Shown here in pieces: positions 44,713-62,498 of a DNA stretch of 64,000 bases (its first letter is position 1; every line of letters begins with the position of its first letter). Where the stretch lies: sequence record NC_133255.1, one strand, 5' to 3'. A program made the position numbers and the translations under genes. This stretch comes from Escherichia phage vB_EcoS-26175I. The notes beneath the pieces are model-generated. The model saw only the letters and a list, made by a program, of their open reading frames with translations. It ran no database searches and was not told where the DNA came from.

Positions 44713-44741
44713 ATTATATAAGATTTCTGGACATTTAGCAA
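44713..44741 (-). promoter_or_regulatory. sigma70-type early promoter (TTGCTA-17-TATAAT)
   Basis: Minus strand: TTGCTA at 44741-44736, 17-bp spacer, TATAAT at 44718-44713; conserved downstream ATAATTATAAATTAATG. Confidence 0.75.
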
Positions 44742-44754
44742 GTAAATTATTTAT

Positions 44755-45186
44755 TTACCAATCGTTAACGAAACCTGAGAACTCCGAAGCAAATACTAAC
44801 TCAAATTTCTCAGCAATTTCAGGATAATCCTTACAGATCAGTTCGATGCACTTCTCAGGTTCCATACCGTCTTCTTCAGGATCACCGTAATACTTGTCCC
44901 AAAGATCATCTGGAATAACTTGCTCGGCTATATCTTGGAAGTTCACTAACTGATAGCGTGGAGTATCTTCATTAATAAAGATCTCCTGCAATTCCTCAGA
45001 TACTTCTCCCCTATAATCGGAAATTAGCAGAGCATTGCAAGTAAAACATTCCCACATCATCAAACGCTCAGAAATCGGGTTCGATCTGTCTTGAACATAG
45101 GACTGAAAGACTGCCTTAAAAGTAGCTTTAACTTGCTCAAACTTATCTGCTGTTGCGATTAAAAGTGCTTTATCAATCTTTTGCAT
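44755..45186 (-). CDS. hypothetical acidic protein
   Basis: 143-aa ORF. Confidence 0.5.
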   Translation of the reverse strand: MQKIDKALLIATADKFEQVKATFKAVFQSYVQDRSNPISERLMMWECFTCNALLISDYRGEVSEELQEIFINEDTPRYQLVNFQDIAEQVIPDDLWDKYYGDPEEDGMEPEKCIELICKDYPEIAEKFELVFASEFSGFVNDW

Positions 45187-45216
45187 TTTGATTCCTTCTC
45201 ATCAATTTATAAAGTA

Positions 45217-45245
45217 ATTATACAGAAAACTAAGCATTTTAGCAA
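45217..45245 (-). promoter_or_regulatory. sigma70-type early promoter (TTGCTA-17-TATAAT)
   Basis: Minus strand -35 TTGCTA, 17-bp spacer, -10 TATAAT, conserved TTTATAAATTGATGAG downstream. Confidence 0.75.
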
Positions 45246-45347
45246 ATGAAGTTTTAAAATAAAAGGCCTAAGCCTAGGCCCGTAAAGAAAGAGATAAGAA
45301 CTACTATCCCTATTGCTATAAATATCTCACGAGCCATGCCATCAAAA

Positions 45348-45938
45348 TCAAACATTAATATCTCCCCTTAATACTGCTGCCACATCTTCACCGATTTGGA
45401 GTACTTCACCAGTAGTGCAGTTAACCACTTTATCATAGCTTGTGAACTTGCCAGACACAATATCTTCTAGAGGAATAGGAGTCTTACTCATCTCAAAAGA
45501 GACGTTGATATAATGTGGGTCACGCACAGAATTGGTGTGCACATGTCCGTGAATATTTAGCTTACCACGAAGTTCTGCTTCGTGCAATGGACAGTGTGAC
45601 AGCCAAAACTTCTTGCCACCACCTGTTTGCTTACCTAGAGCCTGAATATCATCATAAACGTCTACAAGATCTTTAATACGCAGACCCTGACGTTCAGCAT
45701 CGTGGTTGCCCATGATTAACTGGTTAGGCACATTGTGGATAACCGACTTTAATTTAGCCAACCCTTCACGCCCCACGGCAATATCCCCTAGCAAGACGAG
45801 CTTAGTACGCTTGCCAATGTGCTTGGACAAAGTATCTAGGATATATTCATCATGTTCTTTCATGTTCTTAAACCACGGACGGAAGCGAAGAGTTCCAGGG
45901 TGGTCTAAGTGCAAATCCGACCAGAATTTAACTTTCAT
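45348..45938 (-). CDS. calcineurin-like metallophosphoesterase
   Basis: 196-aa ORF; motifs DLHLDH, GDIAVG, GNHD, GHVH. Confidence 0.8.
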   Translation of the reverse strand: MKVKFWSDLHLDHPGTLRFRPWFKNMKEHDEYILDTLSKHIGKRTKLVLLGDIAVGREGLAKLKSVIHNVPNQLIMGNHDAERQGLRIKDLVDVYDDIQALGKQTGGGKKFWLSHCPLHEAELRGKLNIHGHVHTNSVRDPHYINVSFEMSKTPIPLEDIVSGKFTSYDKVVNCTTGEVLQIGEDVAAVLRGDINV

Positions 45939-46144
45939 TATTTATTCCTTACACATGTGGATGTAATAGTATAACTATCGTAGAATATACCTTTTGTGAG
46001 TCCAATTTGAATACTGGAATAATCTAGCTCACCTCCAGCTACATCACATAAGTGTTTTGTATCTTCTGCAGTAAATCTCATATTATCATCGTAGGAATCA
46101 CATCCAGCTAGTATTAGTACTGATAATAGTAGTAATCTCTTCAT
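45938..46144 (-). CDS. small lipoprotein
   Basis: 68-aa ORF; signal peptide MKRLLLLSVLILAGC with lipobox. Confidence 0.6.
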   Translation of the reverse strand: MKRLLLLSVLILAGCDSYDDNMRFTAEDTKHLCDVAGGELDYSSIQIGLTKGIFYDSYTITSTCVRNK

Positions 46145-46511
46145 TACAGAACTTCCTCCGCATATTTATTCCAACCCTGACAATAACTACTAATACCACG
46201 AAGTTTGAATATTTCATCATGAATCTCATGATGTTCTTTTTGCTTCTTGATATCCTTTGTCAAGTTCTTCTTGTCGTGCTTGCTCAAAATCAACACGATT
46301 CTCTAGCATTTTCCAGACTTCTTCATACTCTGGCCAGTCATGCTCTACCACAACGGTTTTGAGATCCTTTTTCCACGTTGTGCTCGACTATACCAGAGCT
46401 TAGTTAGTATATGTTCCAAACTAACTATAGTACTATCACTGATATGCCCTAATTCTAGGGCTTTCTCAATATCAGACAACTTTATTACTACATAACGTTC
46501 TTCACGTTCCA

Positions 46512-47390
46512 TTATAGAATCCTCTGTACACCACAGCTATCATTTTTATCTGTGGTAAATGTCAAGATCTTACCAGCTTCATCATTAACTTGCGCAACCG
46601 TCAACTGCCCATTGAAAACACCGCCAGTATCGAGATAAACACGGTTCTTGTACAGAATTGGGTAAGGAACACCAGTGTGACCATGGAATACGAAATCTAC
46701 ACTTTCAACTTCTGGCACTTCCACAGTCAGTTCATCTTTAAATCCTGCATAACGCTGGAAATAGGGGTGCTCTGCACCTTGCTTAGACAGATGAAAACCA
46801 ATTTCCTGAATTACATCACGATCCCATAGATATGGCTCAATGTAATAACTAGGATGATCATTAGGATCATTTTCACTTGCAGCGATATGATCAATAATAT
46901 CATCCCAATTAGGTGTATGTACATCGAATCCCGCATCTTTATATTGGAATGGTATTCCACCATGAACAACACCATATTTCTTGCCACGATGGAGTACAGT
47001 CATGAATACTGGCATTTTAACTGCCATATCTTCTGCGATACCTTTAATTGTATCGGTATCTAGATCATTCATTGCCCACATTCCACCATTATACATCCAG
47101 TTGGCGTAGTCACCAGCAATCATAAACTGATCATGGTTGCCACGAACGCTGCGGAAGCGTGGGTTATATAAGAATTTGGCTAGAACCTGTAAGTTCTGCG
47201 GGCCACGGTCGATCAGGTCTCCAACACAGACAACATAGTCACGCTTTTCTTTATACCCTGCTAGTTTAAGAGCATCTTCCAACATATCATTACAGCCGTG
47301 AATATCTCCTACGAAGAACAGGTTAACATCATCTGGTACTACTAACATTTCATGCAGGTTAACTTCTTTTTTCATTATCGAGTCATCCAA
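46512..47390 (-). CDS. Ser/Thr protein phosphatase (PPP family)
   Basis: 292-aa ORF; motifs GDIHG, GDLIDRG, GNHD. Confidence 0.85.
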   Translation of the reverse strand: MDDSIMKKEVNLHEMLVVPDDVNLFFVGDIHGCNDMLEDALKLAGYKEKRDYVVCVGDLIDRGPQNLQVLAKFLYNPRFRSVRGNHDQFMIAGDYANWMYNGGMWAMNDLDTDTIKGIAEDMAVKMPVFMTVLHRGKKYGVVHGGIPFQYKDAGFDVHTPNWDDIIDHIAASENDPNDHPSYYIEPYLWDRDVIQEIGFHLSKQGAEHPYFQRYAGFKDELTVEVPEVESVDFVFHGHTGVPYPILYKNRVYLDTGGVFNGQLTVAQVNDEAGKILTFTTDKNDSCGVQRIL

Positions 47391-47755
47391 TTAGTGTGTT
47401 TTTCAGCTTCTGTATCATTTGGCTCAAAGACAACATGACAGTCTACTACTTCCCAGAAGCATTCACGGATAATAGCATTTTGCTCTGCAATATCCAGCTC
47501 TTCCCACTCTTCCATTGTTTCTAGGTCAGTATCAACTTCGGTATCAGCCCCAACCAAGCCCAAAGTAACAACAATAGTAACGCTACCTTCACGTTCTTCG
47601 GGATAAGCTTCAGCATATTCCCAAGCAGCTTGTTCAACATAATATTCTTGTTCCTTTTCAGTCAGTGACTTATACTTTTCTTCTGTGATCCCCATTTCTA
47701 CAGCACGAGTACCACAGACCACGTTGTTATGTATTATAAGATATGCGTAATTCAA
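47375..47755 (-). CDS. hypothetical acidic protein
   Basis: 126-aa ORF downstream of an early promoter. Confidence 0.5.
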   Translation of the reverse strand: MNYAYLIIHNNVVCGTRAVEMGITEEKYKSLTEKEQEYYVEQAAWEYAEAYPEEREGSVTIVVTLGLVGADTEVDTDLETMEEWEELDIAEQNAIIRECFWEVVDCHVVFEPNDTEAEKHTNWMTR

Positions 47756-47786
47756 TGTGATACTCCTCTCATCAATTTATACATAT

Positions 47787-47815
47787 ATTATATCAAAATT
47801 TTTAGCAGAAAGCAA
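47787..47815 (-). promoter_or_regulatory. sigma70-type early promoter (TTGCTT-17-TATAAT)
   Basis: Minus strand -35 TTGCTT, 17-bp spacer, -10 TATAAT. Confidence 0.75.
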
Positions 47816-47819
47816 GTAA

Positions 47820-47851
47820 TAAAAAAGCCTAGTCAGCTAAGACTAGGCTTT
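47820..47851 (-). terminator. rho-independent terminator
   Basis: Hairpin AGCCTAGTC-N6-GACTAGGCT followed by T6 on the minus strand. Confidence 0.7.
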
Positions 47852-47856
47852 GGGTG

Positions 47857-48147
47857 TTAATCCCTTGGATTATCTTCCAAGAAGTTTTTGATTGCATCGT
47901 GCATAGTTTCTTTACGAAGTTGACGACCAATCAGAATGTGGTTGGCTTCCACACGACCATTAGGGAGACGATCGGCTAAAACTACTACAGGTACTTGTCT
48001 AACACCGAACTTCTGCATAAGTTCTGTGTTATCAGTCTCTTTATGAACTTCTAGACTGTAGTCCTGTACTACTTTATCAAATACAGGCTCGAAAAGTTTA
48101 CAAGGATTGCAGGTAGATCCCTTCAGTAGATATACTAATTTACTCAT
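47857..48147 (-). CDS. thioredoxin/glutaredoxin-like protein
   Basis: 96-aa ORF; CxxC active-site-like motif CNPC near N-terminus. Confidence 0.55.
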   Translation of the reverse strand: MSKLVYLLKGSTCNPCKLFEPVFDKVVQDYSLEVHKETDNTELMQKFGVRQVPVVVLADRLPNGRVEANHILIGRQLRKETMHDAIKNFLEDNPRD

Positions 48148-48550
48148 GTTTATTAATGGCCTCCAAAAATGCCTTCATCACTTTAACAGTTGCAGTGCTA
48201 AGATCTAATGTAACACCTAAGCACTCGGATACAGCAGCTTGATAAGGGGCTTTTAGCCTGCCTTCCGGTACTTGTACTTTCTTATAGGTTTTCTTCTTGA
48301 CTTTATCCAGCATCGTTTCAAGAACATTGAGAGGCAACTTCTGACCTTCAATATTCACGCCAAGCTCTTCCATTAGCATGGTATTTAAGTCAATACGAGT
48401 AAGTTTCTTGCCCTTGCTAGACATACGAATTCCCGCCTTTTTCTCAAGTTTTGCACGCTCTGGTGAATCGAGGTCACGTAATGCGATGTTCAATTCATAC
48501 GGAGCCATATTGTAATGGTTAGCCATCTGAGTATAGTAACGATCTGACAT
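48140..48550 (-). CDS. hypothetical protein
   Basis: 136-aa ORF downstream of an early promoter. Confidence 0.5.
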   Translation of the reverse strand: MSDRYYTQMANHYNMAPYELNIALRDLDSPERAKLEKKAGIRMSSKGKKLTRIDLNTMLMEELGVNIEGQKLPLNVLETMLDKVKKKTYKKVQVPEGRLKAPYQAAVSECLGVTLDLSTATVKVMKAFLEAINKHE

Positions 48551-48583
48551 TTGTGAAACTCCTCTGATTCAATTTATACAAAT

Positions 48584-48612
48584 ATTATATAAAAATTTCA
48601 GCGGAAAGTCAA
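48584..48612 (-). promoter_or_regulatory. sigma70-type early promoter (TTGACT-17-TATAAT)
   Basis: Minus strand -35 TTGACT, 17-bp spacer, -10 TATAAT. Confidence 0.75.
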
Positions 48613-48625
48613 TTACTTTTTTATA

Positions 48626-49042
48626 TTAATGTGCTTGATGTGGGAATCTCTTCCTAACTAAGTACATAGTTATTGGATATACTGAATACATAAGTATAGG
48701 GGAGAAAAGGGTGAAATAAGCCGTGACTCCCCCAGCTAACATTAGTGGTATCAATGCTAGAGTAAGGGCCATAAGAATCATACCGAATGAGACAGCCAGG
48801 GCTACTGTGATGCAGTTTTCTAACTCCATCCAAAGCCAACAATATTTCGTATTTCTCTGGCAGTTGCATTTGCAAACGCCGAATGTGCCCATAATTATAT
48901 ACTCTAGCCCATGAATGACTTTCTTTAATGTATCATTTTGGGTAGCTAGTGCGACAACAGTGAGAATTATCATTAAGATGAAAACTACTAGGCTTATTTT
49001 CCATATTCCTAGTAATATCATGGTGAATAGTTCTGCAAACAT
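48626..49042 (-). CDS. integral membrane protein
   Basis: 138-aa ORF with at least three hydrophobic helices. Confidence 0.5.
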   Translation of the reverse strand: MFAELFTMILLGIWKISLVVFILMIILTVVALATQNDTLKKVIHGLEYIIMGTFGVCKCNCQRNTKYCWLWMELENCITVALAVSFGMILMALTLALIPLMLAGGVTAYFTLFSPILMYSVYPITMYLVRKRFPHQAH

Positions 49043-49082
49043 GGCTTTCTCCTATCATTAAGTTTTTAAAGCCCCCTTTTGC

Positions 49083-49108
49083 TTTAAAAGGCGGGGTAAC
49101 TCCCGCCT
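49083..49108 (-). terminator. putative terminator after endolysin gene
   Basis: Hairpin GGCGGG-N6-CCCGCC followed by CTTTTAAAG on minus strand. Confidence 0.45.
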
Positions 49109-49118
49109 TGATTTATTA

Positions 49119-49532
49119 TCAGGCTAATTCTACGTGACCACCGTCGTAAGTACCACGATCGATCTCATCATGATAATCACCAGAACTATTCCAGTCGGCA
49201 CCAAAACGAAGTTTGATACCAAGTTCCTTACCAGCTTGTTCAAAAGCCTTCTTAACAGCCCAAAATGCTTCCAGATCTTTCCAATCAATCTTACCATTAA
49301 TATATGGTGCAAAATCTATAGCATCTCCAGTTACATGCTTACTTTTGCTAGGGTCTTTCAAGAATGAAGTACCATTAGCAATATTTTGGGCACTTTGTGC
49401 TACTGTACGAATACCTTGTACGATTGTGAAATCGTATGGGGATAGTTCTAAAGCCCTACGAGCTACCTTTTGTAGCTCGGGCTTAACAGTTGCTAATTGT
49501 TTTTCACTATTTTTACCAAATTTAAAACTCAT
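49119..49532 (-). CDS. lys: endolysin, L-alanyl-D-glutamate peptidase
   Basis: 137-aa ORF; sequence MSFKFGKNSEKQLATVKPEL...GDAIDFAPY...DYHDEIDRGTYDGGHVE matches my recollection of T5 endolysin almost residue for residue. Confidence 0.85.
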   Translation of the reverse strand: MSFKFGKNSEKQLATVKPELQKVARRALELSPYDFTIVQGIRTVAQSAQNIANGTSFLKDPSKSKHVTGDAIDFAPYINGKIDWKDLEAFWAVKKAFEQAGKELGIKLRFGADWNSSGDYHDEIDRGTYDGGHVELA

Positions 49533-50185
49533 ATAGATCTACCTAATGATCTCCGTTGTGGGGAACAGAGCTTTGCTAAGTACTCATTAAATTGTTCCGA
49601 ATCAGCTGTATCTACGGGTTTATCCTTCCATGCAATACCTATGTATCCAGCATAGATATTATTTAGGTTGAAATATGGACAAGTGTAGACGTAATTAAAA
49701 GTAATGTTCTTAAATGCTGGTATATTTGACCCCGTATACTTATTTACTTTTACACTTAAATCCGCAGCGTAGTTAAAGCCTTCCAGGTGACGTCTATAAA
49801 GTTCAGACGTCTTATTTACTGCTTTATCGGCCAAGTCAGCCCTATCCAATTGCGCATTGCTTTCCCATGCAATAATGTTTGAATAATCATTTATAGCATC
49901 TGGTTTATACTTTACTACAAAAACGGCATCCGCACCAGTCTGGGAGAAAAGAACCATACTCTTTTCTCGTGCTACATTAGGAAAGTTATCTATCCTTTGG
50001 GTTTGAACATCCTGTAAAACCGAAGACGTGGAGAAAGTCTTTAAAAATGACATCACCTCGCTAGTGTTACTTACAAACAAGAAAATAATGACAGCAACTA
50101 AGATAGTTAGCAGACGTTTTAGTAGCGAAGCTGGATCTTTCGCTTCTTGTAGCAGTATCGTTAATAGTTGTATAAACTTTTCCAC
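49529..50185 (-). CDS. holin (putative)
   Basis: 218-aa ORF immediately upstream of and overlapping endolysin start; N-terminal TM helix. Confidence 0.6.
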   Translation of the reverse strand: MEKFIQLLTILLQEAKDPASLLKRLLTILVAVIIFLFVSNTSEVMSFLKTFSTSSVLQDVQTQRIDNFPNVAREKSMVLFSQTGADAVFVVKYKPDAINDYSNIIAWESNAQLDRADLADKAVNKTSELYRRHLEGFNYAADLSVKVNKYTGSNIPAFKNITFNYVYTCPYFNLNNIYAGYIGIAWKDKPVDTADSEQFNEYLAKLCSPQRRSLGRSI

Positions 50186-50209
50186 TTGTAACCTCCTCTA
50201 ACCACTACC

Positions 50210-52439: not shown

Positions 52440-53094
52440 GTGCTGCTAACCTGTCTTTATCTGATACGGTAATCATATCAGGCTCACCAGTTCCTAGTAC
52501 ACCGAAGATATACTGTTCGAGAACTTGGTGTAAACGGTATAAGTTACTTTCAATTTCCTGCCACGGAATACCTGACTGGTGGAAACGAATGTTTGTCTGA
52601 ATTACGAAGTTACGAACATCATCGTTATCGTTCTTCTTAATACCTTTCACATATGCAATTGGTACGCGCAGTTCAGATAAGATACGTTCTGCTTTAGGTT
52701 TTGCTTCAACCAACATATCTCGCATGGTTTCACGAACATCACCACGATTCTTGTCTAGTAAGTAAGAACGGGCATGTAATCCCATTTCTTCCATTTTATC
52801 AAATACAGCATCGATGTTGAACGTTTTGAAACTGAATGCCGGATGCCAGCAGGACAGCTCATGTAACCAGTAAACTTCACCTGCAATAAACAGCGGATTT
52901 ACTGAGTATTCGAAATCACCACGGAAGGATAAGGAACCTTCACGAAACACCTGACGATTATGAACAATATTCTTTTCTACATCGTCGGTTACTTTTACTA
53001 GCAGCTCTTCAGTTTTACGCTCCCAGACACGATCTGGATCAAATAAACTATTCTGCAAATCGTATACATCATTGAACTTTGAAATGATTCTCAT
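52396..53094 (-). CDS. hypothetical protein
   Basis: 232-aa ORF downstream of an early promoter. Confidence 0.55.
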   Translation of the reverse strand: MRIISKFNDVYDLQNSLFDPDRVWERKTEELLVKVTDDVEKNIVHNRQVFREGSLSFRGDFEYSVNPLFIAGEVYWLHELSCWHPAFSFKTFNIDAVFDKMEEMGLHARSYLLDKNRGDVRETMRDMLVEAKPKAERILSELRVPIAYVKGIKKNDNDDVRNFVIQTNIRFHQSGIPWQEIESNLYRLHQVLEQYIFGVLGTGEPDMITVSDKDRLAAHGFDTKTSFRNMAR

Positions 53095-53125
53095 AAATTA
53101 TCCTTTTGCCTCAATCTATAAACAT

Positions 53126-53154
53126 ATTATACAATACTTGTGGCATCTGAGCAA
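53126..53154 (-). promoter_or_regulatory. sigma70-type early promoter (TTGCTC-17-TATAAT)
   Basis: Minus strand -35 TTGCTC, 17-bp spacer, -10 TATAAT. Confidence 0.7.
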
Positions 53155-53169
53155 CTGAAATTTTATTAC

Positions 53170-54949: not shown

Positions 54950-55217
54950 CGTCCTCTTCACAGTCACGGCATACATCATAATCATTGAAAGAATGTTCGT
55001 GAGCTTCACACCACCAAGAACAAGAATCGCACAAGAAAATTTCTGTTTTCTCTATTGCCTGTCCAAGCAGTTCGTCTGCTTCATCTTCGGTGATTTTCAA
55101 ACTACAAACATCAGCAACACGTTTAACAATCATTTTACCTGCTTCATGATAAGACATACAAGTCCCAACAACATCATGCTCAAGTACGTGAACAGCACAG
55201 TCTAGGCGAGTTTTCAT
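54936..55217 (-). CDS. Cys-rich acidic protein
   Basis: 93-aa ORF; CDSCSWWC...CRDCEEDDEDE; downstream of early promoter. Confidence 0.45.
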   Translation of the reverse strand: MKTRLDCAVHVLEHDVVGTCMSYHEAGKMIVKRVADVCSLKITEDEADELLGQAIEKTEIFLCDSCSWWCEAHEHSFNDYDVCRDCEEDDEDE

Positions 55218-55247
55218 TTCAAAGCCCTCTCATCAATTTATATAAAT

Positions 55248-55276
55248 ATTATATCAAAAGGAGAGGGTTTTAGCAA
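55248..55276 (-). promoter_or_regulatory. sigma70-type early promoter (TTGCTA-17-TATAAT)
   Basis: Minus strand -35 TTGCTA, 17-bp spacer, -10 TATAAT, conserved ATTTATATAAATTGATGAGAGGG downstream. Confidence 0.8.
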
Positions 55277-55293
55277 ATGAATTATTTACGAAA

Positions 55294-57187: not shown

Positions 57188-57193
57188 ATAATT

Positions 57194-57269: not shown

Positions 57270-57270
57270 A

Positions 57271-57537
57271 TTAATACGGGTACTTGGCTCTTTTCACTGC
57301 TCTTTCAAATTCTCTAATATGTTCTCTAGAGAGTGCAGATAAATCAAAGGCACAAGATACTAAACGTTCTTTCTTGAAGAATCCTAAATAAAAGGAGGCT
57401 GTTATACATTGCGTAGGTCTAGCAAAGATCTTGTAAACTCCGGATTTAGGGATTCCCATACCCTTTTGATAATTACTGCCATTTGTAGGCCCAGCCATTA
57501 AGTTTTTGGGTACTAAGTCAAAACGTATTTTAATCAT
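57271..57537 (-). CDS. hypothetical protein
   Basis: 88-aa ORF between tRNA genes. Confidence 0.45.
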   Translation of the reverse strand: MIKIRFDLVPKNLMAGPTNGSNYQKGMGIPKSGVYKIFARPTQCITASFYLGFFKKERLVSCAFDLSALSREHIREFERAVKRAKYPY

Positions 57538-57827
57538 CGCATAATATCCAAATAAGATTCATAACGATAGTCTGTTAGGCCTTCCTCCGTCACCGTAACC
57601 TTCACTGGAGGTACCCGACGAACTAAACCATGAATCATCTTGTACTGAATAGACTTAGATGGTTCGTGATCTTTTGGAAATACTTGTTTAACCGTTACTA
57701 CTTTGAAGCCTTCACGAGGTGTTAGCACAACAACTTGATCACCTTCTTTTATTTTCCAAGACTCAGGAAATTCGTAAGTATAGCGTTGACCACCAGTTTG
57801 GAACACGACAGAAAGATAACGTTTCAT
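57534..57827 (-). CDS. hypothetical protein
   Basis: 97-aa ORF downstream of early promoter. Confidence 0.5.
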   Translation of the reverse strand: MKRYLSVVFQTGGQRYTYEFPESWKIKEGDQVVVLTPREGFKVVTVKQVFPKDHEPSKSIQYKMIHGLVRRVPPVKVTVTEEGLTDYRYESYLDIMR

Positions 57828-57857
57828 TTGGTTTCCCTCTCATTAATTTATATAAAT

Positions 57858-57886
57858 ATTATAACAAGAAATAAGAGAGAAGGCAA
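57858..57886 (-). promoter_or_regulatory. sigma70-type early promoter (TTGCCT-17-TATAAT)
   Basis: Minus strand -35 TTGCCT, 17-bp spacer, -10 TATAAT. Confidence 0.7.
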
Positions 57887-57905
57887 ATGAATTTTTTAAA
57901 TTTGA

Positions 57906-57977
57906 TGCTCCCACCAGGAATCGAACCCAGTTCAGATGCTTACAAGGCAACTGCATCGCCAGCAATGCTTTAGGAGC
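57906..57977 (-). tRNA. tRNA-Thr (anticodon TGT)
   Basis: Hand fold: acceptor GCTCCTA/TGGGAGC, T-arm CTGGG-TTCGATT-CCTGG, anticodon loop CTTGTAA; CCA not encoded. Confidence 0.7.
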
Positions 57978-58143
57978 ATTAACCCGTTATTTCAACGGGA
58001 TTTCTTTTTCATATACAGGAGACTTATCAGACATTACTGTCCTAGCCAACTGCTGTAGAAATTCGAAGGAGAGTTTTAAACGTTCTTCACCCAACTCAAC
58101 CTCAACGCACTTCATTTGTTTATCAACCTTTAGCTTTAGATTA

Positions 58144-58365
58144 TCAGCCATCTTCGGATTCTCTTTGCTCAGCTATTGCTAGCCAGTTTGGTAAAAGAAA
58201 CTTCGTACGAAATTCTTCATATGTTTCTTCTGGATGAAAGCTATAACCTTGCTTTTCATCATTTAATAAAACCGAACCGTCTTCCTGTTCATAAGCTCGG
58301 TATGTTTCACCAATAATTAAAACTCGTCTATTAGGATTTTTATTACGAAACTCAAAAACGTGCAT
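58144..58365 (-). CDS. hypothetical protein
   Basis: 73-aa ORF. Confidence 0.45.
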   Translation of the reverse strand: MHVFEFRNKNPNRRVLIIGETYRAYEQEDGSVLLNDEKQGYSFHPEETYEEFRTKFLLPNWLAIAEQRESEDG

Positions 58366-58379
58366 AACGTTTCCTTAAA

Positions 58380-58455
58380 TTGGTGCGGGATACGAGAGTC
58401 GAACTCGTGTCTACTGGTTGGAAGCCAGTTATTCTAGCCACTGAACTAATCACGC
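58380..58455 (-). tRNA. tRNA-Gly (anticodon TCC)
   Basis: Hand fold: T-arm ACGAG-TTCGACT-CTCGT, anticodon stem ACTGG/CCAGT with loop CTTCCAA, CCA encoded; one acceptor mismatch. Confidence 0.7.
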
Positions 58456-58461
58456 ATGAAT

Positions 58462-58537
58462 TGGCTGGAGAAGGAGGAATCGAACCTACCATTAACGGAG
58501 TCAAAGGCCGTTGTGCTAACCGTTACACTACTCTCCA
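58462..58537 (-). tRNA. tRNA-Gln (anticodon TTG)
   Basis: Hand fold: starts with T1 and G73 discriminator as in E. coli tRNA-Gln; anticodon loop CTTTGAC; CCA encoded. Confidence 0.7.
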
Positions 58538-58543
58538 AGTATT

Positions 58544-58619
58544 TGGCTGGGATGCCACGGATCGAACGTGGAACCTTCGGAGTCAGAGGCCGACGATCTG
58601 CCAATTGATCTACATCCCA
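58544..58619 (-). tRNA. tRNA-Gln (anticodon CTG)
   Basis: Hand fold: acceptor TGGGATG/CATCCCA, T-arm CCACG-TTCGATC-CGTGG, anticodon loop CTCTGAC, CCA encoded. Confidence 0.75.
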
Positions 58620-58627
58620 ATAATTTT

Positions 58628-58828
58628 TTATTCTACAGGAACCGTGGCGATTGGATCAGGTTCTTCTAGACGTTTACCATTATGATCAACACGAATAATA
58701 CCACAACCCTCACAGATTACAACAGCACCATAGCCTTCTTTAACTTCGGCTTCTGTAATCAGCCCAGAAAGATCACCAGTATCTTTTCCCCACATATCAA
58801 TGGAACATTCTTTGCAGAAATCAGCCAT
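58628..58828 (-). CDS. small zinc-ribbon-like protein
   Basis: 66-aa ORF; CKEC...CEGC cysteine pairs. Confidence 0.45.
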   Translation of the reverse strand: MADFCKECSIDMWGKDTGDLSGLITEAEVKEGYGAVVICEGCGIIRVDHNGKRLEEPDPIATVPVE

Positions 58829-58852
58829 ATTTTATTTCCCGTTTAAGTTAGT

Positions 58853-58927
58853 TGGTGCATCCTCAGGGAATCGAACCCCGATCGTAAAGTTCGTAGCTTT
58901 ACATTCTTTCCATTGAAATAAGGACGC
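58853..58927 (-). tRNA. tRNA-Arg (anticodon ACG)
   Basis: Hand fold: acceptor GCGTCCT/AGGATGC, T-arm CGGGG-TTCGATT-CCCTG, anticodon stem TAAAG/CTTTA loop CTACGAA, CCA encoded. Confidence 0.7.
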
Positions 58928-58933
58928 AATATT

Positions 58934-59010
58934 TGGGGTGACTAGTGGAATTCGAATCCACATAGGCCTGATTCACAATCAGGATCATTAACCAATTATG
59001 ATATAGCCAC
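58934..59010 (-). tRNA. tRNA-His (anticodon GTG)
   Basis: Hand fold: acceptor GTGGCTA/TAGTCAC, discriminator C73, anticodon stem CCTGA/TCAGG loop TTGTGAA, T-arm GTGGA-TTCGAAT-TCCAC, CCA encoded. Confidence 0.8.
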
Positions 59011-59191
59011 AATTGAAATCTCTAGTTATCCCTTTCGTAGGGGCTAAAGGGCGATACCCATCCTAAAGACTTCAATTGTGGCGGCTCTCCGAAACTCATC
59101 ACACTAACAACTAGTTGATTACTTCTGGATTCTCGCCCAGAAAATTCTCTAGAAAGGTGCACCGTTACTCTTTGAGCCATTGAATATCAAG

Positions 59192-59300
59192 AAGTAGAAG
59201 GACTCGAACCTTCACGAGATAGACCATTTATCTCAGCCTCGTTTTCGGGTATCTTATGAGGAGTGGATGTTCCCCTTACGCCCTTTAGGAAGCCCCGTCT
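59192..59300 (-). ncRNA. tRNA-like element, unresolved (~107 nt)
   Basis: Contains a canonical T-arm (GAAGG-TTCGAGT-CCTTC) and a Leu/Tyr-type D-arm (GCCGGAATCGGTAGACGG) closed by a 6-bp terminal stem GAAGTA/TACTTC, but I could not place a canonical anticodon arm. Confidence 0.4.
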
Positions 59301-59305
59301 ACCGA

Positions 59306-59395
59306 TTCCGGCATACTTCAAGATTTGGCAGAAGATAATGGAGTCGAACCATCACCGTATCACTACAGCGGGCCGGTTTTCAAGACCGGTTACGT
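59306..59395 (-). tRNA. tRNA-Ser (anticodon TGA), long variable arm
   Basis: Hand fold: acceptor AGAAGAT/ATCTTCT, anticodon stem CCGGT/ACCGG loop CTTGAAA, 19-nt variable arm, T-arm GATGG-TTCGACT-CCATT, CCA encoded. Confidence 0.75.
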
Positions 59396-59413
59396 ACCAC
59401 TACGTCCTATCTT

Positions 59414-59770
59414 CTATTGTTCGTATATTACAAAGTTTACAGATTCAGAGTAATAACCATTACTAGAACCATGCCATTTAACGGTTACACAGCCTTTAGC
59501 TGTGGCAAACTTATACCATGTATGGGTTACTGAATCCCAATCTTCTGTAGCGTGTGTGATTACTTCCTCTGCTTCTATGATTGGATAACCTAAAAGGTCA
59601 TGTAAATCACCAATAATATCATCTATATGAACATCTTCACAGCAGTCCTGCTCATGATAAAACTTATAGTTCTTACCATCAGTACAAATGAAGATAAGAG
59701 TATCTTGGTCTTGGCATACATTAGTAAAAATTTTGCCAAGCATTTCATTATAGATTGTCACTTCTGACAT
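59414..59770 (-). CDS. hypothetical acidic protein
   Basis: 118-aa ORF. Confidence 0.5.
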   Translation of the reverse strand: MSEVTIYNEMLGKIFTNVCQDQDTLIFICTDGKNYKFYHEQDCCEDVHIDDIIGDLHDLLGYPIIEAEEVITHATEDWDSVTHTWYKFATAKGCVTVKWHGSSNGYYSESVNFVIYEQ

Positions 59771-59792
59771 ATTAGTTTCCTAGTAAGTTGTT

Positions 59793-59882
59793 TGGCGGAA
59801 GAAGAGAGATTCGAACTCTCAAGCCGTTTTACCAGTCAGCCACTTTCCAAGCGGTTTTCGTCACCTATCGATTTGCTCTTCC
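59793..59882 (-). tRNA. tRNA-Ser (anticodon GGA), long variable arm
   Basis: Hand fold: acceptor GGAAGAG/TTCTTCC and 3' end GAGAGTTCGAATCTCTCTTCTTCCGCCA closely resemble E. coli tRNA-Ser; anticodon loop TTGGAAA. Confidence 0.65.
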
Positions 59883-60056
59883 GTAGATCTCAGGATTAAA
59901 TCATAAACTTCATTAGCGGATACTGGAAGTATGAGATTATACATCTTTTGGTCATACCTCTGACCATACTCTATAAACACATACTCTTTAGTTAATGTAT
60001 TAACAGCTAACCAGATATCAGTTATAGGAGTTTTCATCATGAGTTAATCCAATGTT

Positions 60057-60137
60057 TGGTAGGGATGGAGGGACTCGAACCCACACCCGAAGACTAGAAC
60101 CTAAATCTAGCGCGTCTGCCAATTTCGCCACATCCCC
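60057..60137 (-). tRNA. tRNA-Leu (anticodon TAG), long variable arm
   Basis: Hand fold: Leu-type D-arm GCGAAATTGGCAGACGC, anticodon stem CTAGA/TCTAG loop TTTAGGT, T-arm TTCGAGT, CCA encoded. Confidence 0.75.
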
Positions 60138-60144
60138 ATTTTAT

Positions 60145-60363
60145 TTAGTTAGAAATAAATAATAATCCCGCAACAATAGAACCTACGCCACTGAATACCA
60201 TTATCAGCATAGCTTCTAAGCTGATAAAGCGGACAGTATATGGAGCGCCCCAAGAATAATCAGTAAAGAAAGTTTTCTTTTCTTTAGCTAAATCTTTAAT
60301 AGTTCTAAAATAGATAGCTAGTGCTAAAGCTGCAAGAACTACAGAGGCTGCTAAGAATACCAT
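60145..60363 (-). CDS. small membrane protein
   Basis: 72-aa ORF with two hydrophobic helices. Confidence 0.45.
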   Translation of the reverse strand: MVFLAASVVLAALALAIYFRTIKDLAKEKKTFFTDYSWGAPYTVRFISLEAMLIMVFSGVGSIVAGLLFISN

Positions 60364-60382
60364 ATTATTTCCTTAATTTGTT

Positions 60383-60458
60383 TGGTGGAGTCACTCAGAA
60401 TTGAACTGAGTTCCACTGCTTGCAAGGCAGTAAGTTTAACCAAATAACCTATGACCCC
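60383..60458 (-). tRNA. tRNA-Ala (anticodon TGC)
   Basis: Hand fold: acceptor GGGGTCA/TGACTCC with G3:U70, anticodon stem ACTGC/GCAGT loop CTTGCAA, T-arm CTCAG-TTCAATT-CTGAG, CCA encoded. Confidence 0.8.
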
Positions 60459-60463
60459 GAATT

Positions 60464-60542
60464 TGGTGGAGAATAAGAGATTCGAACTCTTCTGATATCC
60501 TCGGTGCAAGCGAGGTGTCCACTCCAAGCAGACCCATTCCCC
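60464..60542 (-). tRNA. tRNA with anticodon TGC (Ala-like, G3:U70) and atypical 7-nt variable region
   Basis: Hand fold: acceptor GGGGAAT/ATTCTCC, D-stem GTCT/GGAC, anticodon stem CCTCG/CGAGG loop CTTGCAC, T-arm AAGAG-TTCGAAT-CTCTT, CCA encoded. Confidence 0.6.
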
Positions 60543-60551
60543 AAAATTTAT

Positions 60552-60815
60552 TTATTCTCTATACATATCGAGAACAGTTGCTACAATCTGAGCTTCTAGC
60601 CTAGCAATATCTTTATTCACTATATCAGATTCTACTACTAAGTGATTATATATTGCTTCAGTTTTAGCAAGATCTATATCAGATAGTTTATTAAGACTAT
60701 TATAATACTTAGCATTATTGCAACGTTTCTTCATATCGGAAACTCGTTTATGGAGGGTTCTTTGTTGATAACGTTGCGACATTAGTTTCTTAGCCATATC
60801 TTTAAGATCAAACAT
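60552..60815 (-). CDS. hypothetical basic protein
   Basis: 87-aa ORF; 230-nt untranslated leader between its start and promoter at 61081-61109. Confidence 0.45.
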   Translation of the reverse strand: MFDLKDMAKKLMSQRYQQRTLHKRVSDMKKRCNNAKYYNSLNKLSDIDLAKTEAIYNHLVVESDIVNKDIARLEAQIVATVLDMYRE

Positions 60816-61080
60816 AGATATTCCTTCTAGTTTACTAAGGCTATTAGCTCGGTGTGCGTATTACCCTCAGACATTAGCCAGTAGAGGATAACCGCTCTTC
60901 ACAAACCCGATACACTATTCAGTTGCCGCTGAATCTAGTGGACTAATCTAGAACTTATTGCAAAGTATCCCCTGCCATTAGGGGTCTAATTGCAATTGTG
61001 CTTTTTGGCAGCCAGTCCTAGGTCGAGCTAATACCTTAGTGAACTTTGATGAGGATTTCTCCTCATCAATTTATATAAAT

Positions 61081-61109
61081 ATTATAACAAGAAATTAAGC
61101 ATCAAGCAA
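61081..61109 (-). promoter_or_regulatory. sigma70-type early promoter (TTGCTT-17-TATAAT)
   Basis: Minus strand -35 TTGCTT, 17-bp spacer, -10 TATAAT, conserved ATTTATATAAATTGATGAGGAG downstream. Confidence 0.75.
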
Positions 61110-61461
61110 GTACATTTTTAGCGATTTCTTGTAGTTCCTTAACGTCGCTAACGAAAAGGTAATCAGAGCTTCCAGAGTGCATACTCTGCATAACCACACC
61201 ATCCTCTGGTGCATCTTCCTTCAAAGTAAGTCCTAACCAGAACTTGGCAAAACCAGGTGTTACCTCACCTTGACTTGCCTTGAACACATCGCCTTCTGTG
61301 ATCTCTTGACCAGTAGAGAGTCCCATGTATGGTACGTTCAGATCAATATCTTTGTAGAACTCAGCTAGATCTTGCTCGAAATCCCAACCTTTAGAGATAG
61401 CGAACTCCATTGTTACATGACCGAAATAGCCTTGAACCTTGCTTGATAATTGCATTTGCAA
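61102..61461 (-). CDS. hypothetical protein
   Basis: 119-aa ORF. Confidence 0.5.
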   Translation of the reverse strand: MQMQLSSKVQGYFGHVTMEFAISKGWDFEQDLAEFYKDIDLNVPYMGLSTGQEITEGDVFKASQGEVTPGFAKFWLGLTLKEDAPEDGVVMQSMHSGSSDYLFVSDVKELQEIAKNVLA

Positions 61462-61480
61462 TTCCTTATTTTGAGTTAAT

Positions 61481-61554
61481 TGGTACTCGGTGATAGAATC
61501 GAACTATCGCAACCGCCGTGTAAAGACGGGGTTCTCCCATTAAACTAACCGAGT
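61481..61554 (-). tRNA. tRNA-Val (anticodon TAC)
   Basis: Hand fold: acceptor ACTCGGT/ACCGAGT, anticodon stem CCGTC/GGCGG loop TTTACAC, T-arm GATAG-TTCGATT-CTATC, CCA encoded. Confidence 0.75.
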
Positions 61555-61558
61555 AATT

Positions 61559-61636
61559 TGGTGGATTGCCTGGGATTCGAACCCAGAACTGACGGATTAA
61601 AGGTCCGCTACTCTTATCCAGTTGAGCTAGCAATCC
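61559..61636 (-). tRNA. tRNA-Lys (anticodon TTT)
   Basis: Hand fold: acceptor GGATTGC/GCAATCC, D-stem GCTC/GAGT, anticodon stem GCGGA/TCCGT loop CCTTTAA, T-arm CTGGG-TTCGAAT-CCCAG, CCA encoded. Confidence 0.7.
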
Positions 61637-62100
61637 AATTTTTCTACTAATAATTTAAAAGCATCTAGTACAGGTACTTCAAACCATTCTCCAGATACTC
61701 TATAATCTTTAAGAAGATTATGTAATTCTTTCTCTGTACGTCTTTTATCAGACGAAAATCTGAAATGGTATAGCTTGTAGTCTCTATTAGGTGAATAAGT
61801 TTGATAACTTGCTAACCTCTCATTCACATCTATAGTCATACCTATTTTATACATGCCTGGCCATGCTGGATTACCAATTACATATACAAAACCTTCCGTT
61901 ATAGGTATTTTATGCTCCCTTTTATACTTTAAGAGATTTAAGGCTGCCATTCGATAACAGAATCTAAACTCTGAAGTTTTTAACTTACCTTCTTTACCCG
62001 AAATTTCGTTATATTTGCTCATATAAGCTCTTATGAGCTTATCATCTATAATGAAGTTATCAGGAAGGTTTAAGGCAGCTAAAACTTTATTAATTAGCAT
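61627..62100 (-). CDS. GIY-YIG-type nuclease (T5orf172-like; putative homing endonuclease)
   Basis: 157-aa ORF; GFVYVIGNPAWPGMYKIGMT resembles the GIY..YIG motif; embedded in tRNA island. Confidence 0.6.
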   Translation of the reverse strand: MLINKVLAALNLPDNFIIDDKLIRAYMSKYNEISGKEGKLKTSEFRFCYRMAALNLLKYKREHKIPITEGFVYVIGNPAWPGMYKIGMTIDVNERLASYQTYSPNRDYKLYHFRFSSDKRRTEKELHNLLKDYRVSGEWFEVPVLDAFKLLVEKLDC

Positions 62101-62285
62101 AGACTTCCTTAATAGAATAAACTTTTAAGTAAGGGTGATTAATACCAAATTCCGCCATCACTTCGTTTTCATCTTTACCGTAATGGGCTAGTGGATACTT
62201 CTTACGATCTTTGCTAGAACGTAGATCACTTACTTTTAAACGAAATAATTTCATTTCGAAATCCTTCTATTAAATTGGAAGCGGG

Positions 62286-62363
62286 TGCAGGAATCGAACC
62301 TACCTCTTTCTAGCTTATGAGACTAGCGATCTCTACCAGAGATCTAACCCGCAATTGTTTGGT
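62286..62363 (-). tRNA. tRNA with anticodon CAT (Met/fMet or Ile2)
   Basis: Hand fold: D-stem GATC/GATC, anticodon stem CTAGT/GCTAG loop CTCATAA, T-arm GTAGG-TTCGATT-CCTGC, unpaired 1:72, CCA encoded. Confidence 0.7.
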
Positions 62364-62369
62364 CTCCGT

Positions 62370-62447
62370 GGGAGGATTTGAACCCCCGACCCTACCGCCC
62401 CAAACGGAACGCTCTGGCCAAACTGAGCTACACGGAGAATATTCTTT
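62370..62447 (-). tRNA. tRNA-Pro (anticodon TGG)
   Basis: Hand fold: C1-G72 start as in E. coli tRNA-Pro, D-stem GCTC/GAGC, anticodon loop TTTGGGG, T-arm GGGGG-TTCAAAT-CCTCC, CCA encoded. Confidence 0.75.
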
Positions 62448-62469
62448 GTTAACTCACTTTATAAAATAT

Positions 62470-62498
62470 ATTATACAGATATTTAAGCATAATAGCAA
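62470..62498 (-). promoter_or_regulatory. sigma70-type early promoter (TTGCTA-17-TATAAT) driving the tRNA-Pro/tRNA-Met unit
   Basis: Minus strand -35 TTGCTA, 17-bp spacer, -10 TATAAT. Confidence 0.75.

What the first reader, a model, noticed from the sequence alone, without database searches (positions are those of the whole stretch)
44713..62498. Family of nine near-identical strong early promoters with a conserved downstream element
Promoters at 44713, 45217, 47787, 48584, 53126, 55248, 57858, 61081 and 62470 (minus strand) all have -35 TTGCTA-like hexamers, exactly 17-bp spacers, perfect -10 TATAAT and a conserved +1 region ATATTTATATAAATTGATGAGAGG. This matches the architecture of classical T5 early promoters such as PN25. 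The conserved transcribed element could act as a shared 5' leader (RNA stability/translation signal) or a regulator-binding site.
Basis: seen in the sequence. Interest (0 to 1): 0.45.

Follow-up and report, generated by a model that had tools for sequence, protein, structure and literature searches.

The report
Classical T5-type early promoters, already known
The nine sites are real, but they are the well-known strong early promoters of T5-like phages, each matching a promoter already annotated in phage T5, and the "downstream element" is the known initial transcribed sequence plus a ribosome-binding site, so the finding is correct but ordinary.

Summary
The window is a T5-like phage, Escherichia phage vB_EcoS-26175 (Epseptimavirus, Demerecviridae). 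All nine sites exist in one register on the minus strand: a TTGCTA-like -35, a 17-bp spacer, a perfect TATAAT, then ATnTnT|ATAAATTGA and a GAGG-type Shine-Dalgarno. The composite pattern gives 9 hits against 0.05 expected.

A tenth member sits on the plus strand at 27624. It drives a Cor/Llp-like lipoprotein gene.

Each of the nine aligns one-to-one with a promoter annotated in the T5 genome, including the named P-F30, P13a and P13b. The downstream block matches that of PN25 (ATAAATTTGAGAGAGGAG).

The element has two modules:
- **-6..+9:** discriminator plus initial transcribed sequence. It is conserved like the hexamers (95% between orthologs) and is kept at promoters that drive tRNA or non-coding RNA.
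- **+10..+17:** a ribosome-binding site, with the start codon at +24..+28.

The leaders are unstructured and show no selected dyad symmetry. The same architecture recurs in Klebsiella, Vibrio, Aeromonas and Proteus Demerecviridae.

Published work already describes the consensus, the +1 TAAATT block, the ATATT discriminator and the role of the N25 transcribed region in promoter escape.

Verdict: observation confirmed, class assignment right, already known, low interest.

The parts
44681..44756 (-). Early promoter module (-50..+26). -35 TTGCTA at 44736-44741, -10 TATAAT at 44713-44718, inferred +1 at 44706, initial transcribed sequence ATAAATTAA, SD GAGAGAGG, ATG at 44680 (+27).
   Evidence: Ortholog of the T5 'putative promoter' upstream of T5p031.
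45185..45260 (-). Early promoter module. -35 TTGCTA, -10 at 45217-45222, +1 at 45210, ATAAATTGA, SD GAGAAGGA, ATG at 45186 (+25). A terminator hairpin (45264-45281) lies immediately upstream.
   Evidence: Ortholog of the named T5 promoter P-F30.
47755..47830 (-). Early promoter module. -35 TTGCTT, -10 at 47787-47792, +1 at 47780, ATAAATTGA, SD GAGAGGAG, TTG start at 47755 (+26). A terminator hairpin (47824-47851) overlaps the upstream edge.
   Evidence: Ortholog of the T5 putative promoter upstream of T5p035.
48552..48627 (-). Early promoter module. -35 TTGACT, -10 at 48584-48589, +1 at 48577, ATAAATTGA, SD AGAGGAG, ATG at 48550 (+28).
   Evidence: Ortholog of the T5 putative promoter upstream of T5p037.
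53094..53169 (-). Early promoter module. -35 TTGCTC, -10 at 53126-53131, +1 at 53119, ATAGATTGA, SD AAAAGGA, ATG at 53094 (+26).
   Evidence: Ortholog of the T5 putative promoter upstream of T5p046.
55216..55291 (-). Early promoter module and best match to the family profile. -35 TTGCTA, TG-extended -10 at 55248-55253, +1 at 55241, ATAAATTGA, SD GAGAGGG, ATG at 55217 (+25).
   Evidence: Ortholog of the T5 putative promoter upstream of T5p052. This 76-nt module hits 600 phage records.
57826..57901 (-). Early promoter module. -35 TTGCCT, TG-extended -10 at 57858-57863, +1 at 57851, ATAAATTAA, SD GAGAGGG, ATG at 57827 (+25). It sits directly after tRNA-Thr.
   Evidence: Ortholog of the T5 putative promoter upstream of T5p056.
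61049..61124 (-). Early promoter module with no ORF behind it. -35 TTGCTT, -10 at 61081-61086, +1 at 61074. The transcript starts ATAAATTGATGAGGAGAAATCCTCATCAA, in which the SD-like part forms a 10-bp 5' hairpin.
   Evidence: MFE -15.7 kcal/mol, z -4.5. Ortholog of the named T5 promoter P13b, which precedes the stable RNA 'RNA2H'.
62438..62513 (-). Early promoter module driving tRNAs. -35 TTGCTA, -10 at 62470-62475, a 7-nt discriminator, then ATAAAGTGA. There is no SD, and tRNA-Pro begins at 62437.
   Evidence: Ortholog of the named T5 promoter P13a.
27609..27684 (+). It drives a Cor-type superinfection-exclusion lipoprotein gene placed divergently from the receptor-binding gene oad, inside the late region.
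   Evidence: phrog_1119, E 1e-22. The T5 llp gene has the same type of promoter at the same place.

Best explanation
These are host-sigma-70-dependent early promoters of a T5-like phage and are orthologs of the early promoters of T5. Each unit stacks nearly every known promoter element:

- an A-tract UP element at about -46..-41;
- a TTGCTw -35;
- a 17-bp spacer, with a TG extended -10 in about half the sites;
- a perfect TATAAT;
- an A/T-only discriminator (A-6 T-5 n T-3 n T-1);
- an A at +1.

The 'conserved downstream element' is a composite of two modules.

**Module 1, -6..+9 (ATnTnT|ATAAATTGA).** This is the discriminator plus the initial transcribed sequence, which Bujard's group called the 'downstream sequence region' in PN25. 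RNA polymerase binds such promoters so tightly that escape is rate-limiting. This A/T-rich initial sequence is selected because it allows efficient melting, scrunching and promoter escape. This step is inferred by homology with N25.

**Module 2, +10..+17 (GAGAGG/GGAG).** This is the Shine-Dalgarno sequence of the first gene. Its start codon lies at +24..+28, giving a short unstructured 23-27-nt leader that supports efficient translation.

Shown here:
- the sequence anatomy;
- one-to-one orthology with annotated T5 promoters;
- restriction to early genes plus the lipoprotein gene;
- selective constraint on +1..+9 equal to that on the hexamers;
- separability of the two modules.

Inferred, not shown:
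- the position of +1, taken by analogy with N25;
- strength and early timing;
- the promoter-escape role.
For: **Identity of the phage.** (100% match to MK907269/MK907270, Epseptimavirus).

**Orthology.**: nine one-to-one alignments with 'promoter' features of T5 AY692264, three of them named (P-F30, P13a, P13b).

**Shared downstream block.**: PN25, P-K28a, P-H207 and other T5 early-region promoters share TATAAT-N6-ATAAATT(T)GA..GAGG, while the pre-early P-D/E20 and P-H22 do not.

**Class contrast.**
- the T5 llp promoter has the block, and the late promoters P-G25 and P-J5 do not.
- the window's ortholog of late P-G25 at 10866 lacks it.

**Spread across the family.**
- the same type occurs 25 times in T5, 16 times in Klebsiella phage Sugarland, 11 in Vibrio phage River4, 6 in Aeromonas phage TS3 and 11 in a Proteus phage. 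There are none in the T5 first-step-transfer DNA.
- when promoters are found from their upstream half only, +1..+7 ATAAATT is still 67-89% conserved in the four distant genera.

**Selective constraint.**, ortholog identity window versus T5: +1..+9 0.95, -35 0.93, -10 1.00, spacer 0.77, +18..+25 0.65.

**Two modules.**: 57 of 75 promoters have an SD and start codon at +22..+29. The 18 that drive tRNA, non-coding RNA or long leaders keep ATAAATT but lose the G-rich +10..+18.

**Leader structure.**: the eight mRNA leaders are no more structured than shuffles.

**Literature.**
- PMC12464699: N25 is limited at the escape step. Replacing its native +3..+20 (antiDSR) cuts full-length RNA about 10-fold.
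- PMC7472727: T5 early promoters share an ATATT discriminator and an UP element, and +1 of N25 is the A of CATAAATT.
- PMC3326045: the T5-like phage AKFV33 has the consensus TTGCTw, a 17-18-bp spacer, TATAATA, AAAAATT at -43 and TAAATT at +1.
Against: - No transcription start site, strength or timing data exist for this phage, and none can be obtained with these tools.
- The promoter-escape function was measured only for N25, whose sequence differs slightly (ATAAATTTGA against ATAAATTGA). The measurement replaced the whole of +3..+20, so it does not isolate +1..+9.
- Very strong conservation of +1..+9 across genera with different hosts could equally reflect a phage-specific reader of this sequence.
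- The original papers (Gentz & Bujard 1985; Kammerer et al. 1986) were not held in the library. What I say about them rests on citing papers and on my own knowledge.
Confidence: 0.85

Rival explanations
1. The -6..+9 block is a temporal-class tag. A phage factor reads this DNA segment to shut off early promoters when late transcription starts. Candidates are RNA polymerase modified by the gpT5.026-type binding protein, or another early protein such as the D5 DNA-binding protein.
For: - PMC7472727 reports that T5 early and late promoters differ mainly in the discriminator, that gpT5.026 weakens RNA polymerase binding to the -5/+2 non-template segment, and that a gene-026 mutant over-produces early transcripts.
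- In this window and in T5 the block is present at early promoters and the llp/cor promoter, and absent from late P-G25 and P-J5 and from pre-early promoters.
- Conservation of +1..+9 equals that of the hexamers and extends to distant genera.
Against: - There is no selected dyad symmetry. Complementarity of the -k/+k pairs equals the expectation from column composition, and only 9 of 75 sites are perfect palindromes.
- The effect of gpT5.026 in vitro is described as moderate (PMC7472727).
- In this window only a C-terminal fragment of a gp026 homolog is detectable.
- An effect on promoter escape has been demonstrated for N25 with host enzyme alone, without any phage factor.
Confidence: 0.15
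2. The whole element works at the RNA level as a shared 5' leader. It would be an A/U-rich, S1-binding translational enhancer and/or a determinant of mRNA stability, common to all first genes of early operons.
For: - 8 of 10 transcripts in the window would start with AUAAAUUGA(U)GAGAGG.
- They have a 23-27-nt unstructured leader and a start codon at +24..+28.
- Across six genomes the start codon peaks at +25/+26.
Against: - The +1..+9 core is retained where nothing is translated: site 61081 (P13b), site 62470 (P13a, followed by tRNA-Pro), and 18 of 75 promoters overall.
- Its distance to the -10 hexamer is fixed at 6 nt, rarely 7, whereas its distance to the start codon varies.
- No conserved RNA structure is present and no Rfam family matches.
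Confidence: 0.2
3. The similarity has no function of its own. It would be recent duplication or gene conversion among promoter cassettes (concerted evolution), or simply an A/T-rich background.
For: - The genome is A/T-rich (about 39% GC).
- Generic hexamer matches are as common as in shuffles.
Against: - Spacers and flanks differ between copies (0.40 identity), while the -35, -10 and +1..+9 are conserved.
- Each copy has its own ortholog in T5, so the copies are old.
- Between orthologs +1..+9 changes far less than the spacer (0.95 against 0.77).
- The composite is 9 hits against 0.05 expected.
- The motif persists in Vibrio, Aeromonas and Proteus phages.
Confidence: 0.02

Closest known systems
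Bacteriophage T5 early promoters PN25, P-K28a and P-H207 (Gentz & Bujard 1985; annotated in AY692264)
   Same: - UP-type A-tract, TTGCTw -35, 17-bp spacer, TATAAT and an A/T discriminator.
- +1 A followed by ATAAATT(T)GA and a GAGAGG-type SD.
- Location in front of early genes and recognition by host sigma-70 polymerase (literature).
   Different: These lie in the right-hand part of the early region, which is outside this window. N25 has AGATTC as discriminator and one extra T (ATAAATTTGA). Nothing categorical differs.
T5 promoters P-F30, P13a and P13b, plus six 'putative promoters' upstream of T5p031, p035, p037, p046, p052 and p056 (AY692264)
   Same: Direct positional and sequence orthologs of the nine sites. 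Ortholog identity is 1.00 for the -10, 0.93 for the -35 and 0.95 for +1..+9.
   Different: - Spacer and flanks diverge by about 23%.
- In T5, P13a is followed by a small ORF (T5p064). Here it is followed directly by tRNA-Pro.
- The GenBank records of this phage (MK907269/70) carry no promoter annotation.
Promoter consensus of the T5-like phage AKFV33 (Niu et al. 2012, PMC3326045)
   Same: The published consensus is TTGCTw, a 17-18-bp spacer, TATAATA, AAAAATT at -43 and TAAATT at +1. This is what the logo of the window's ten sites shows.
   Different: That paper pooled 32 promoters. It did not separate the initial transcribed sequence from the SD, and it did not compare temporal classes or distant genera.
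N25 'downstream sequence region' / initial transcribed sequence (Kammerer et al. 1986; Hsu & Han 2025, PMC12464699)
   Same: Same position (+1..+20) and nearly the same sequence. It gives the mechanistic precedent that the transcribed region sets the efficiency of promoter escape.
   Different: The function was tested only on N25 and on synthetic variants, not on these nine promoters or on the 9-nt core alone.

Membership tests
T5-type (Demerecviridae) early sigma-70 promoter | -35 hexamer TTGCTw | tested here: met
   TTGCTA x4, TTGCTT x2, TTGCTC, TTGCCT, TTGACT. TTGCTA or TTGCTT in 45 of 75 pooled promoters.
T5-type (Demerecviridae) early sigma-70 promoter | 17-bp (rarely 18-bp) spacer and a perfect or near-perfect TATAAT | tested here: met
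   17 bp and TATAAT in 10 of 10.
T5-type (Demerecviridae) early sigma-70 promoter | A-rich block around -43 (UP element, AAAAATT) | tested here: met
   A at -45, -44 and -42 in 90% of sites, and A at -37 in 100%.
T5-type (Demerecviridae) early sigma-70 promoter | A/T discriminator of the ATATT type, which distinguishes early from late promoters (PMC7472727) | tested here: met
   A-6 0.9, T-5 0.9, T-3 0.9, T-1 1.0. The match is at consensus level, and positions -4 and -2 vary. The exact string ATATT at -6..-2 occurs in only 2 of 10 sites.
T5-type (Demerecviridae) early sigma-70 promoter | +1 A followed by (A)TAAATT, the N25-type initial transcribed sequence | tested here: met
   9 of 10 in register with 1 or fewer mismatches, and site 62470 shifted by 1 nt. 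One search gives N25 and the other T5 promoters.
T5-type (Demerecviridae) early sigma-70 promoter | Positional orthology with known T5 early promoters, in front of early genes | tested here: met
T5-type (Demerecviridae) early sigma-70 promoter | Transcription starts at the predicted +1, made by host sigma-70 holoenzyme, with early kinetics and high strength | not testable with these tools
   No 5'-end or time-course data for this phage. No T5 start-site transcriptome was found in the library.
Structured cis-regulatory RNA leader | Conserved secondary structure more stable than chance, or a match to a curated RNA family | tested here: not met
   the eight mRNA leaders have MFE -1.9 to -6.2 kcal/mol and z -0.11 to +0.99; only tRNAs in 43-64 kb. 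The exception is the 5' hairpin of the non-coding 61081 transcript.
Dyad-symmetric operator for a dimeric repressor | Inverted-repeat symmetry selected beyond base composition | tested here: not met
   complementarity of the -k/+k pairs equals the expectation from column composition. The perfect palindrome ATTTATATAAAT occurs in 9 of 75 sites, 3 of them in the window.

The most novel reading that the evidence does not exclude
The block -6..+9 (ATnTnT|ATAAATTRA) is constrained as tightly as the -10 and -35 hexamers. It is shared by Demerecviridae infecting Escherichia, Salmonella, Klebsiella, Proteus, Vibrio and Aeromonas. On this reading it is not only an escape-optimised start region. It would be the temporal-class determinant through which a phage-modified RNA polymerase (of the gpT5.026 type) or another phage protein selectively silences early promoters at the early-to-late switch. 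That switch is still an open question for T5.
Probability: 0.15. Interest if true: 0.5.

Novelty: already known. Interest (0 to 1): 0.12.

Why it matters
It matters little as a discovery. T5 early promoters are textbook tools (PN25 underlies widely used expression vectors), and their consensus has been published, including the A/T-rich +1 block.

There are three modest gains:
- A promoter map for a phage whose GenBank records annotate none.
- A clean separation of the 'downstream element' into a transcription module (-6..+9) and a ribosome-binding site.
- Evidence that the +1..+9 core is as constrained as the hexamers across distant Demerecviridae genera. This makes it a sensible target for experiments on the unresolved early-to-late switch of T5.

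Tried and rejected
- **Generic sigma-70 and terminator scan.** Promoter-like hits equal the shuffle expectation, so the scan cannot find the family. It was useful only for the terminators.
- **RNA-level explanation.** Folding the ten leaders and an Rfam search found no conserved structure or family. I rejected this for the mRNA leaders.
- **Palindromic operator.** ATTTATATAAAT looked attractive at three sites, but pooled statistics show no symmetry beyond composition. Rejected.
- **Sigma-70-dependent proximal pause element.** This would be a -10-like TATAAA at -1..+5. It comes from my own knowledge only, the hexamer lacks the critical final T, and I did not pursue it.
- **Original papers.** Gentz & Bujard 1985 and Kammerer/Deuschle 1986 are not held in the library. 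I relied on papers that cite them.
- **T5 start-site transcriptome.** I searched for one and found none.
- **gpT5.026 homolog in the window.** Only a 40-aa C-terminal tblastn match was found, which is inconclusive.
- An early script read only the first record of multi-record locus files, so part of the output is meaningless. It was redone correctly.

Full report
**What the window is.** The region 44000-63000 is 100% identical to Escherichia phage vB_EcoS-26175III/II/IV (MK907269, MK907268, MK907270). Positions 20000-44000 are identical to MK907270. These phages belong to Demerecviridae, Markadamsvirinae, Epseptimavirus, and are T5-like. The finding lies in the left early region, which holds small early genes, the lysis cassette, dnk and the tRNA cluster with 21 tRNAs, all on the minus strand. 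The GenBank records annotate no promoters.

**Check of the observation.** All nine sites exist in one register on the minus strand.
- The -35 hexamers are TTGCTA x4, TTGCTT x2, TTGCTC, TTGCCT and TTGACT.
- The spacer is 17 bp in all nine, and the -10 is TATAAT in all nine.
- Downstream come 6 nt of A/T (7 nt at 62470), then ATAAATT(G/A)A, then a purine-rich GAGAGG/GGAG block.
- In seven of the nine, a start codon follows that coincides with the first ORF: 44680, 45186, 47755 (TTG), 48550, 53094, 55217 and 57827.

The composite TTG-N20-TATAAT-N6-ATAAATTRA gives 9 hits against 0.05 expected. An nhmmer profile of the nine scores them at E 1e-8 to 1e-15. A generic sigma-70 scan is no better than shuffles, 55 against 56.

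'Near-identical' does not hold, because mean pairwise identity over 84 nt is 0.54 and is concentrated in the -35, the -10 and +1..+9. The full 24-mer also fits with 2 or fewer mismatches at only four sites.

**What the sites are.** The T5 reference record AY692264 annotates 'promoter' features at the orthologous places, and each of the nine aligns one-to-one with one of them.

| Window site | T5 feature |
|---|---|
| 44713 | putative promoter upstream of T5p031 |
| 45217 | P-F30 |
| 47787 | putative promoter upstream of T5p035 |
| 48584 | putative promoter upstream of T5p037 |
| 53126 | putative promoter upstream of T5p046 |
| 55248 | putative promoter upstream of T5p052 |
| 57858 | putative promoter upstream of T5p056 |
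| 61081 | P13b |
| 62470 | P13a |

The classical T5 promoters further right in the early region have the same design. PN25 reads TTGCTT-17-TATAAT AGATTC ATAAATTTGAGAGAGGAGTTTAAAT ATG. P-K28a reads TATAAT ATTTAT ATAAATTGATAAGGAAG. P-H207 and the promoters upstream of ligA, T5p098, p084 and p123 are similar. The pre-early promoters P-D/E20 and P-H22 and the late promoters P-G25 and P-J5 lack the block. The profile finds no member in the T5 first-step-transfer DNA.

The tenth window member drives a Cor-type superinfection-exclusion lipoprotein (phrog_1119, E 1e-22) next to the receptor-binding gene oad. In T5 the llp gene at the same place has the same promoter type, TATAAT AGTATT ATAAATTAA. From my own knowledge, llp is an early gene (Decker et al. 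1994). The window also holds the ortholog of late P-G25 at 10866-10894. It has TTGATA-17-TATAAT but reads ATTGTT ATTAAGAGGAG downstream, which gives an internal class contrast.

**Anatomy of the 'downstream element'.** By analogy with N25, +1 is the A seven bases after the -10 hexamer. PMC7472727 gives TATAATAGATTCAT as -12..+2. The element then splits into two modules.

*Module 1, -6..+9.* In the window, A-6, T-5 and T-3 are each at 0.9 and T-1 is at 1.0. Positions +1..+7 (ATAAATT) are at 0.9-1.0, G+8 is at 0.7 and A+9 is at 0.9.
- Between orthologs (window against T5), +1..+9 is 95% identical. The -35 is 93% and the -10 is 100%, but the spacer is 77%, the UP region 76% and +18..+25 65%.
- The same promoter type occurs 25 times in T5, 16 times in 40 kb of Klebsiella phage Sugarland, 11 times in Vibrio phage River4, 6 times in Aeromonas phage TS3 and 11 times in a Proteus phage.
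- To avoid circularity I re-found promoters with a model of the upstream half only. ATAAATT at +1..+7 is still 67-89% conserved in the four distant genera.
- A blastn search with one 76-nt module hits 600 phage records at 2046 places. By name these are mostly Salmonella, Escherichia, Klebsiella, Vibrio, Proteus and Providencia phages, and every record I examined was Demerecviridae.

*Module 2, +10..+17.* Of 75 pooled promoters, 57 have an SD and a start codon at +22..+29, with the mode at +25/+26. The other 18 drive tRNAs, non-coding RNA or long leaders. Those 18 keep ATAAATT at 61-83% per position, but their G content at +10..+18 falls from 0.40 to 0.26. So the GAGAGG part is a ribosome-binding site, and the ATAAATTGA part is not a translation signal.

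In the window the two non-coding cases are these:
- **61081 (P13b).** The SD-like GATGAGGAG pairs with a downstream CTCCTCATC to form a 10-bp 5' hairpin (MFE -15.7 kcal/mol, z -4.5).
- **62470 (P13a).** This site runs directly into tRNA-Pro.

**Tests of alternative mechanisms.**
- The eight mRNA leaders are unstructured, with z from -0.11 to +0.99. Rfam finds only tRNAs. There is therefore no structured cis-regulatory RNA.
- The 12-bp palindrome ATTTATATAAAT at -6..+6 occurs at three window sites. Over 75 promoters, the complementarity of symmetric positions equals what column composition predicts. There is therefore no selected operator symmetry.
- Concerted evolution or chance is excluded by the divergent spacers, by each copy having its own ortholog, and by conservation across genera.

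**Most likely mechanism.** These promoters combine an UP element, a good -35, an optimal spacer, a TG extension in 30 of 75, and a perfect -10. N25, the best-studied member, forms extremely stable open complexes and is rate-limited at promoter escape. Replacing its native +3..+20 reduces full-length RNA about ten-fold (PMC12464699, citing Kammerer et al. 1986).

The simplest reading is that the A/T discriminator and the ATAAATTGA start region are kept because they let the polymerase melt, scrunch and leave an otherwise too-tight promoter. The SD that follows gives a short, open leader for translation. The first part is inference by homology. The SD assignment follows directly from the sequence.

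PMC7472727 adds that T5 early promoters differ from late ones mainly in the discriminator, and that the RNA-polymerase-binding protein gpT5.026 weakens contacts with the -5/+2 segment. A regulatory reading of this block therefore remains possible, at about 15%.

**Comparison with what is known, and novelty.** Everything in the finding has been described:
- the T5 promoters themselves (Gentz & Bujard 1985, from my own knowledge, and the AY692264 annotation);
- the function of the N25 transcribed region (Kammerer 1986, via PMC12464699);
- the early-class ATATT discriminator and the UP element (PMC7472727);
- for a T5-like phage, the consensus TTGCTw, 17-18 bp, TATAATA, with AAAAATT at -43 and TAAATT at +1 (PMC3326045).

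The sites here are orthologs of those promoters, so the finding is already known.

**Verdict.** The mechanism of the downstream element is best explained as initial transcribed sequence plus ribosome-binding site. Novelty: already known. Interest: 0.12.

Noticed in passing
window 27609-27948 (+): A tenth promoter of the same family drives a Cor-type superinfection-exclusion lipoprotein (88 aa, MKKLLIALAAVTMLSGC..., phrog_1119 E 1e-22). The gene is divergent from the receptor-binding gene oad and sits inside the late region. It occupies the same place as llp in T5, which has the same promoter type.
   Followed up: yes
window 10866-10894 (-): This is the ortholog of the classical T5 late promoter P-G25: A-tract, TTGATA, 17 bp, TATAAT, then ATTGTT ATTAAGAGGAG and ATG. 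It has a perfect -10 and an UP-like tract but no ATAAATTGA, so it serves as an in-window contrast between late and early classes.
   Followed up: partly
window 50210-50238 (-): TTGTAA-17-TATAAT lies in front of the holin/endolysin genes and is followed by GGTAGTGGTTAGAGGAGG..GTG. It corresponds to a 'putative promoter' in T5 (upstream of T5p040) and lacks the early-type start region. The lysis cassette may belong to a different temporal class.
   Followed up: no
window 60816-61074 (-): The transcript from the 61081 promoter begins with a very stable 10-bp 5' hairpin (61046-61069, -15.7 kcal/mol, z -4.5). About 230 nt follow without an ORF, a tRNA or an Rfam match. T5 annotates the orthologous stretch as the stable RNA 'RNA2H', of unknown function.
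   Followed up: partly
window 45264-45281, 47824-47851, 50308-50333 (-): Intrinsic-terminator hairpins with T-runs sit immediately upstream of, or overlap, the UP region of promoters 45217 and 47787. A third follows the Clp-like gene. These terminator-promoter junctions divide the early region into short operons.
   Followed up: no
window 47375-47755 (-): GenBank starts this CDS at 47695. The TTG at 47755 sits at +26 of the promoter, right after the SD GAGAGGAG, and the 126-aa product covers PHROG 6798 end to end (1-125 of 126). The annotated start is therefore probably 20 codons too short.
   Followed up: partly
window 43326-43445 (+): Only the C-terminal 40 residues of the RNA-polymerase-binding protein gpT5.026 are detectable (tblastn, 65% identity, E 2e-10). 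The local ORF is 34 aa from a TTG and is unannotated. The regulator may be truncated, differently started or lost in this phage.
   Followed up: partly
window 55236-55247, 57846-57857, 61069-61080 (-): A perfect 12-bp palindrome, ATTTATATAAAT, spans -6..+6 at three promoters. Pooled over 75 promoters, the symmetry is no more than composition predicts.
   Followed up: yes
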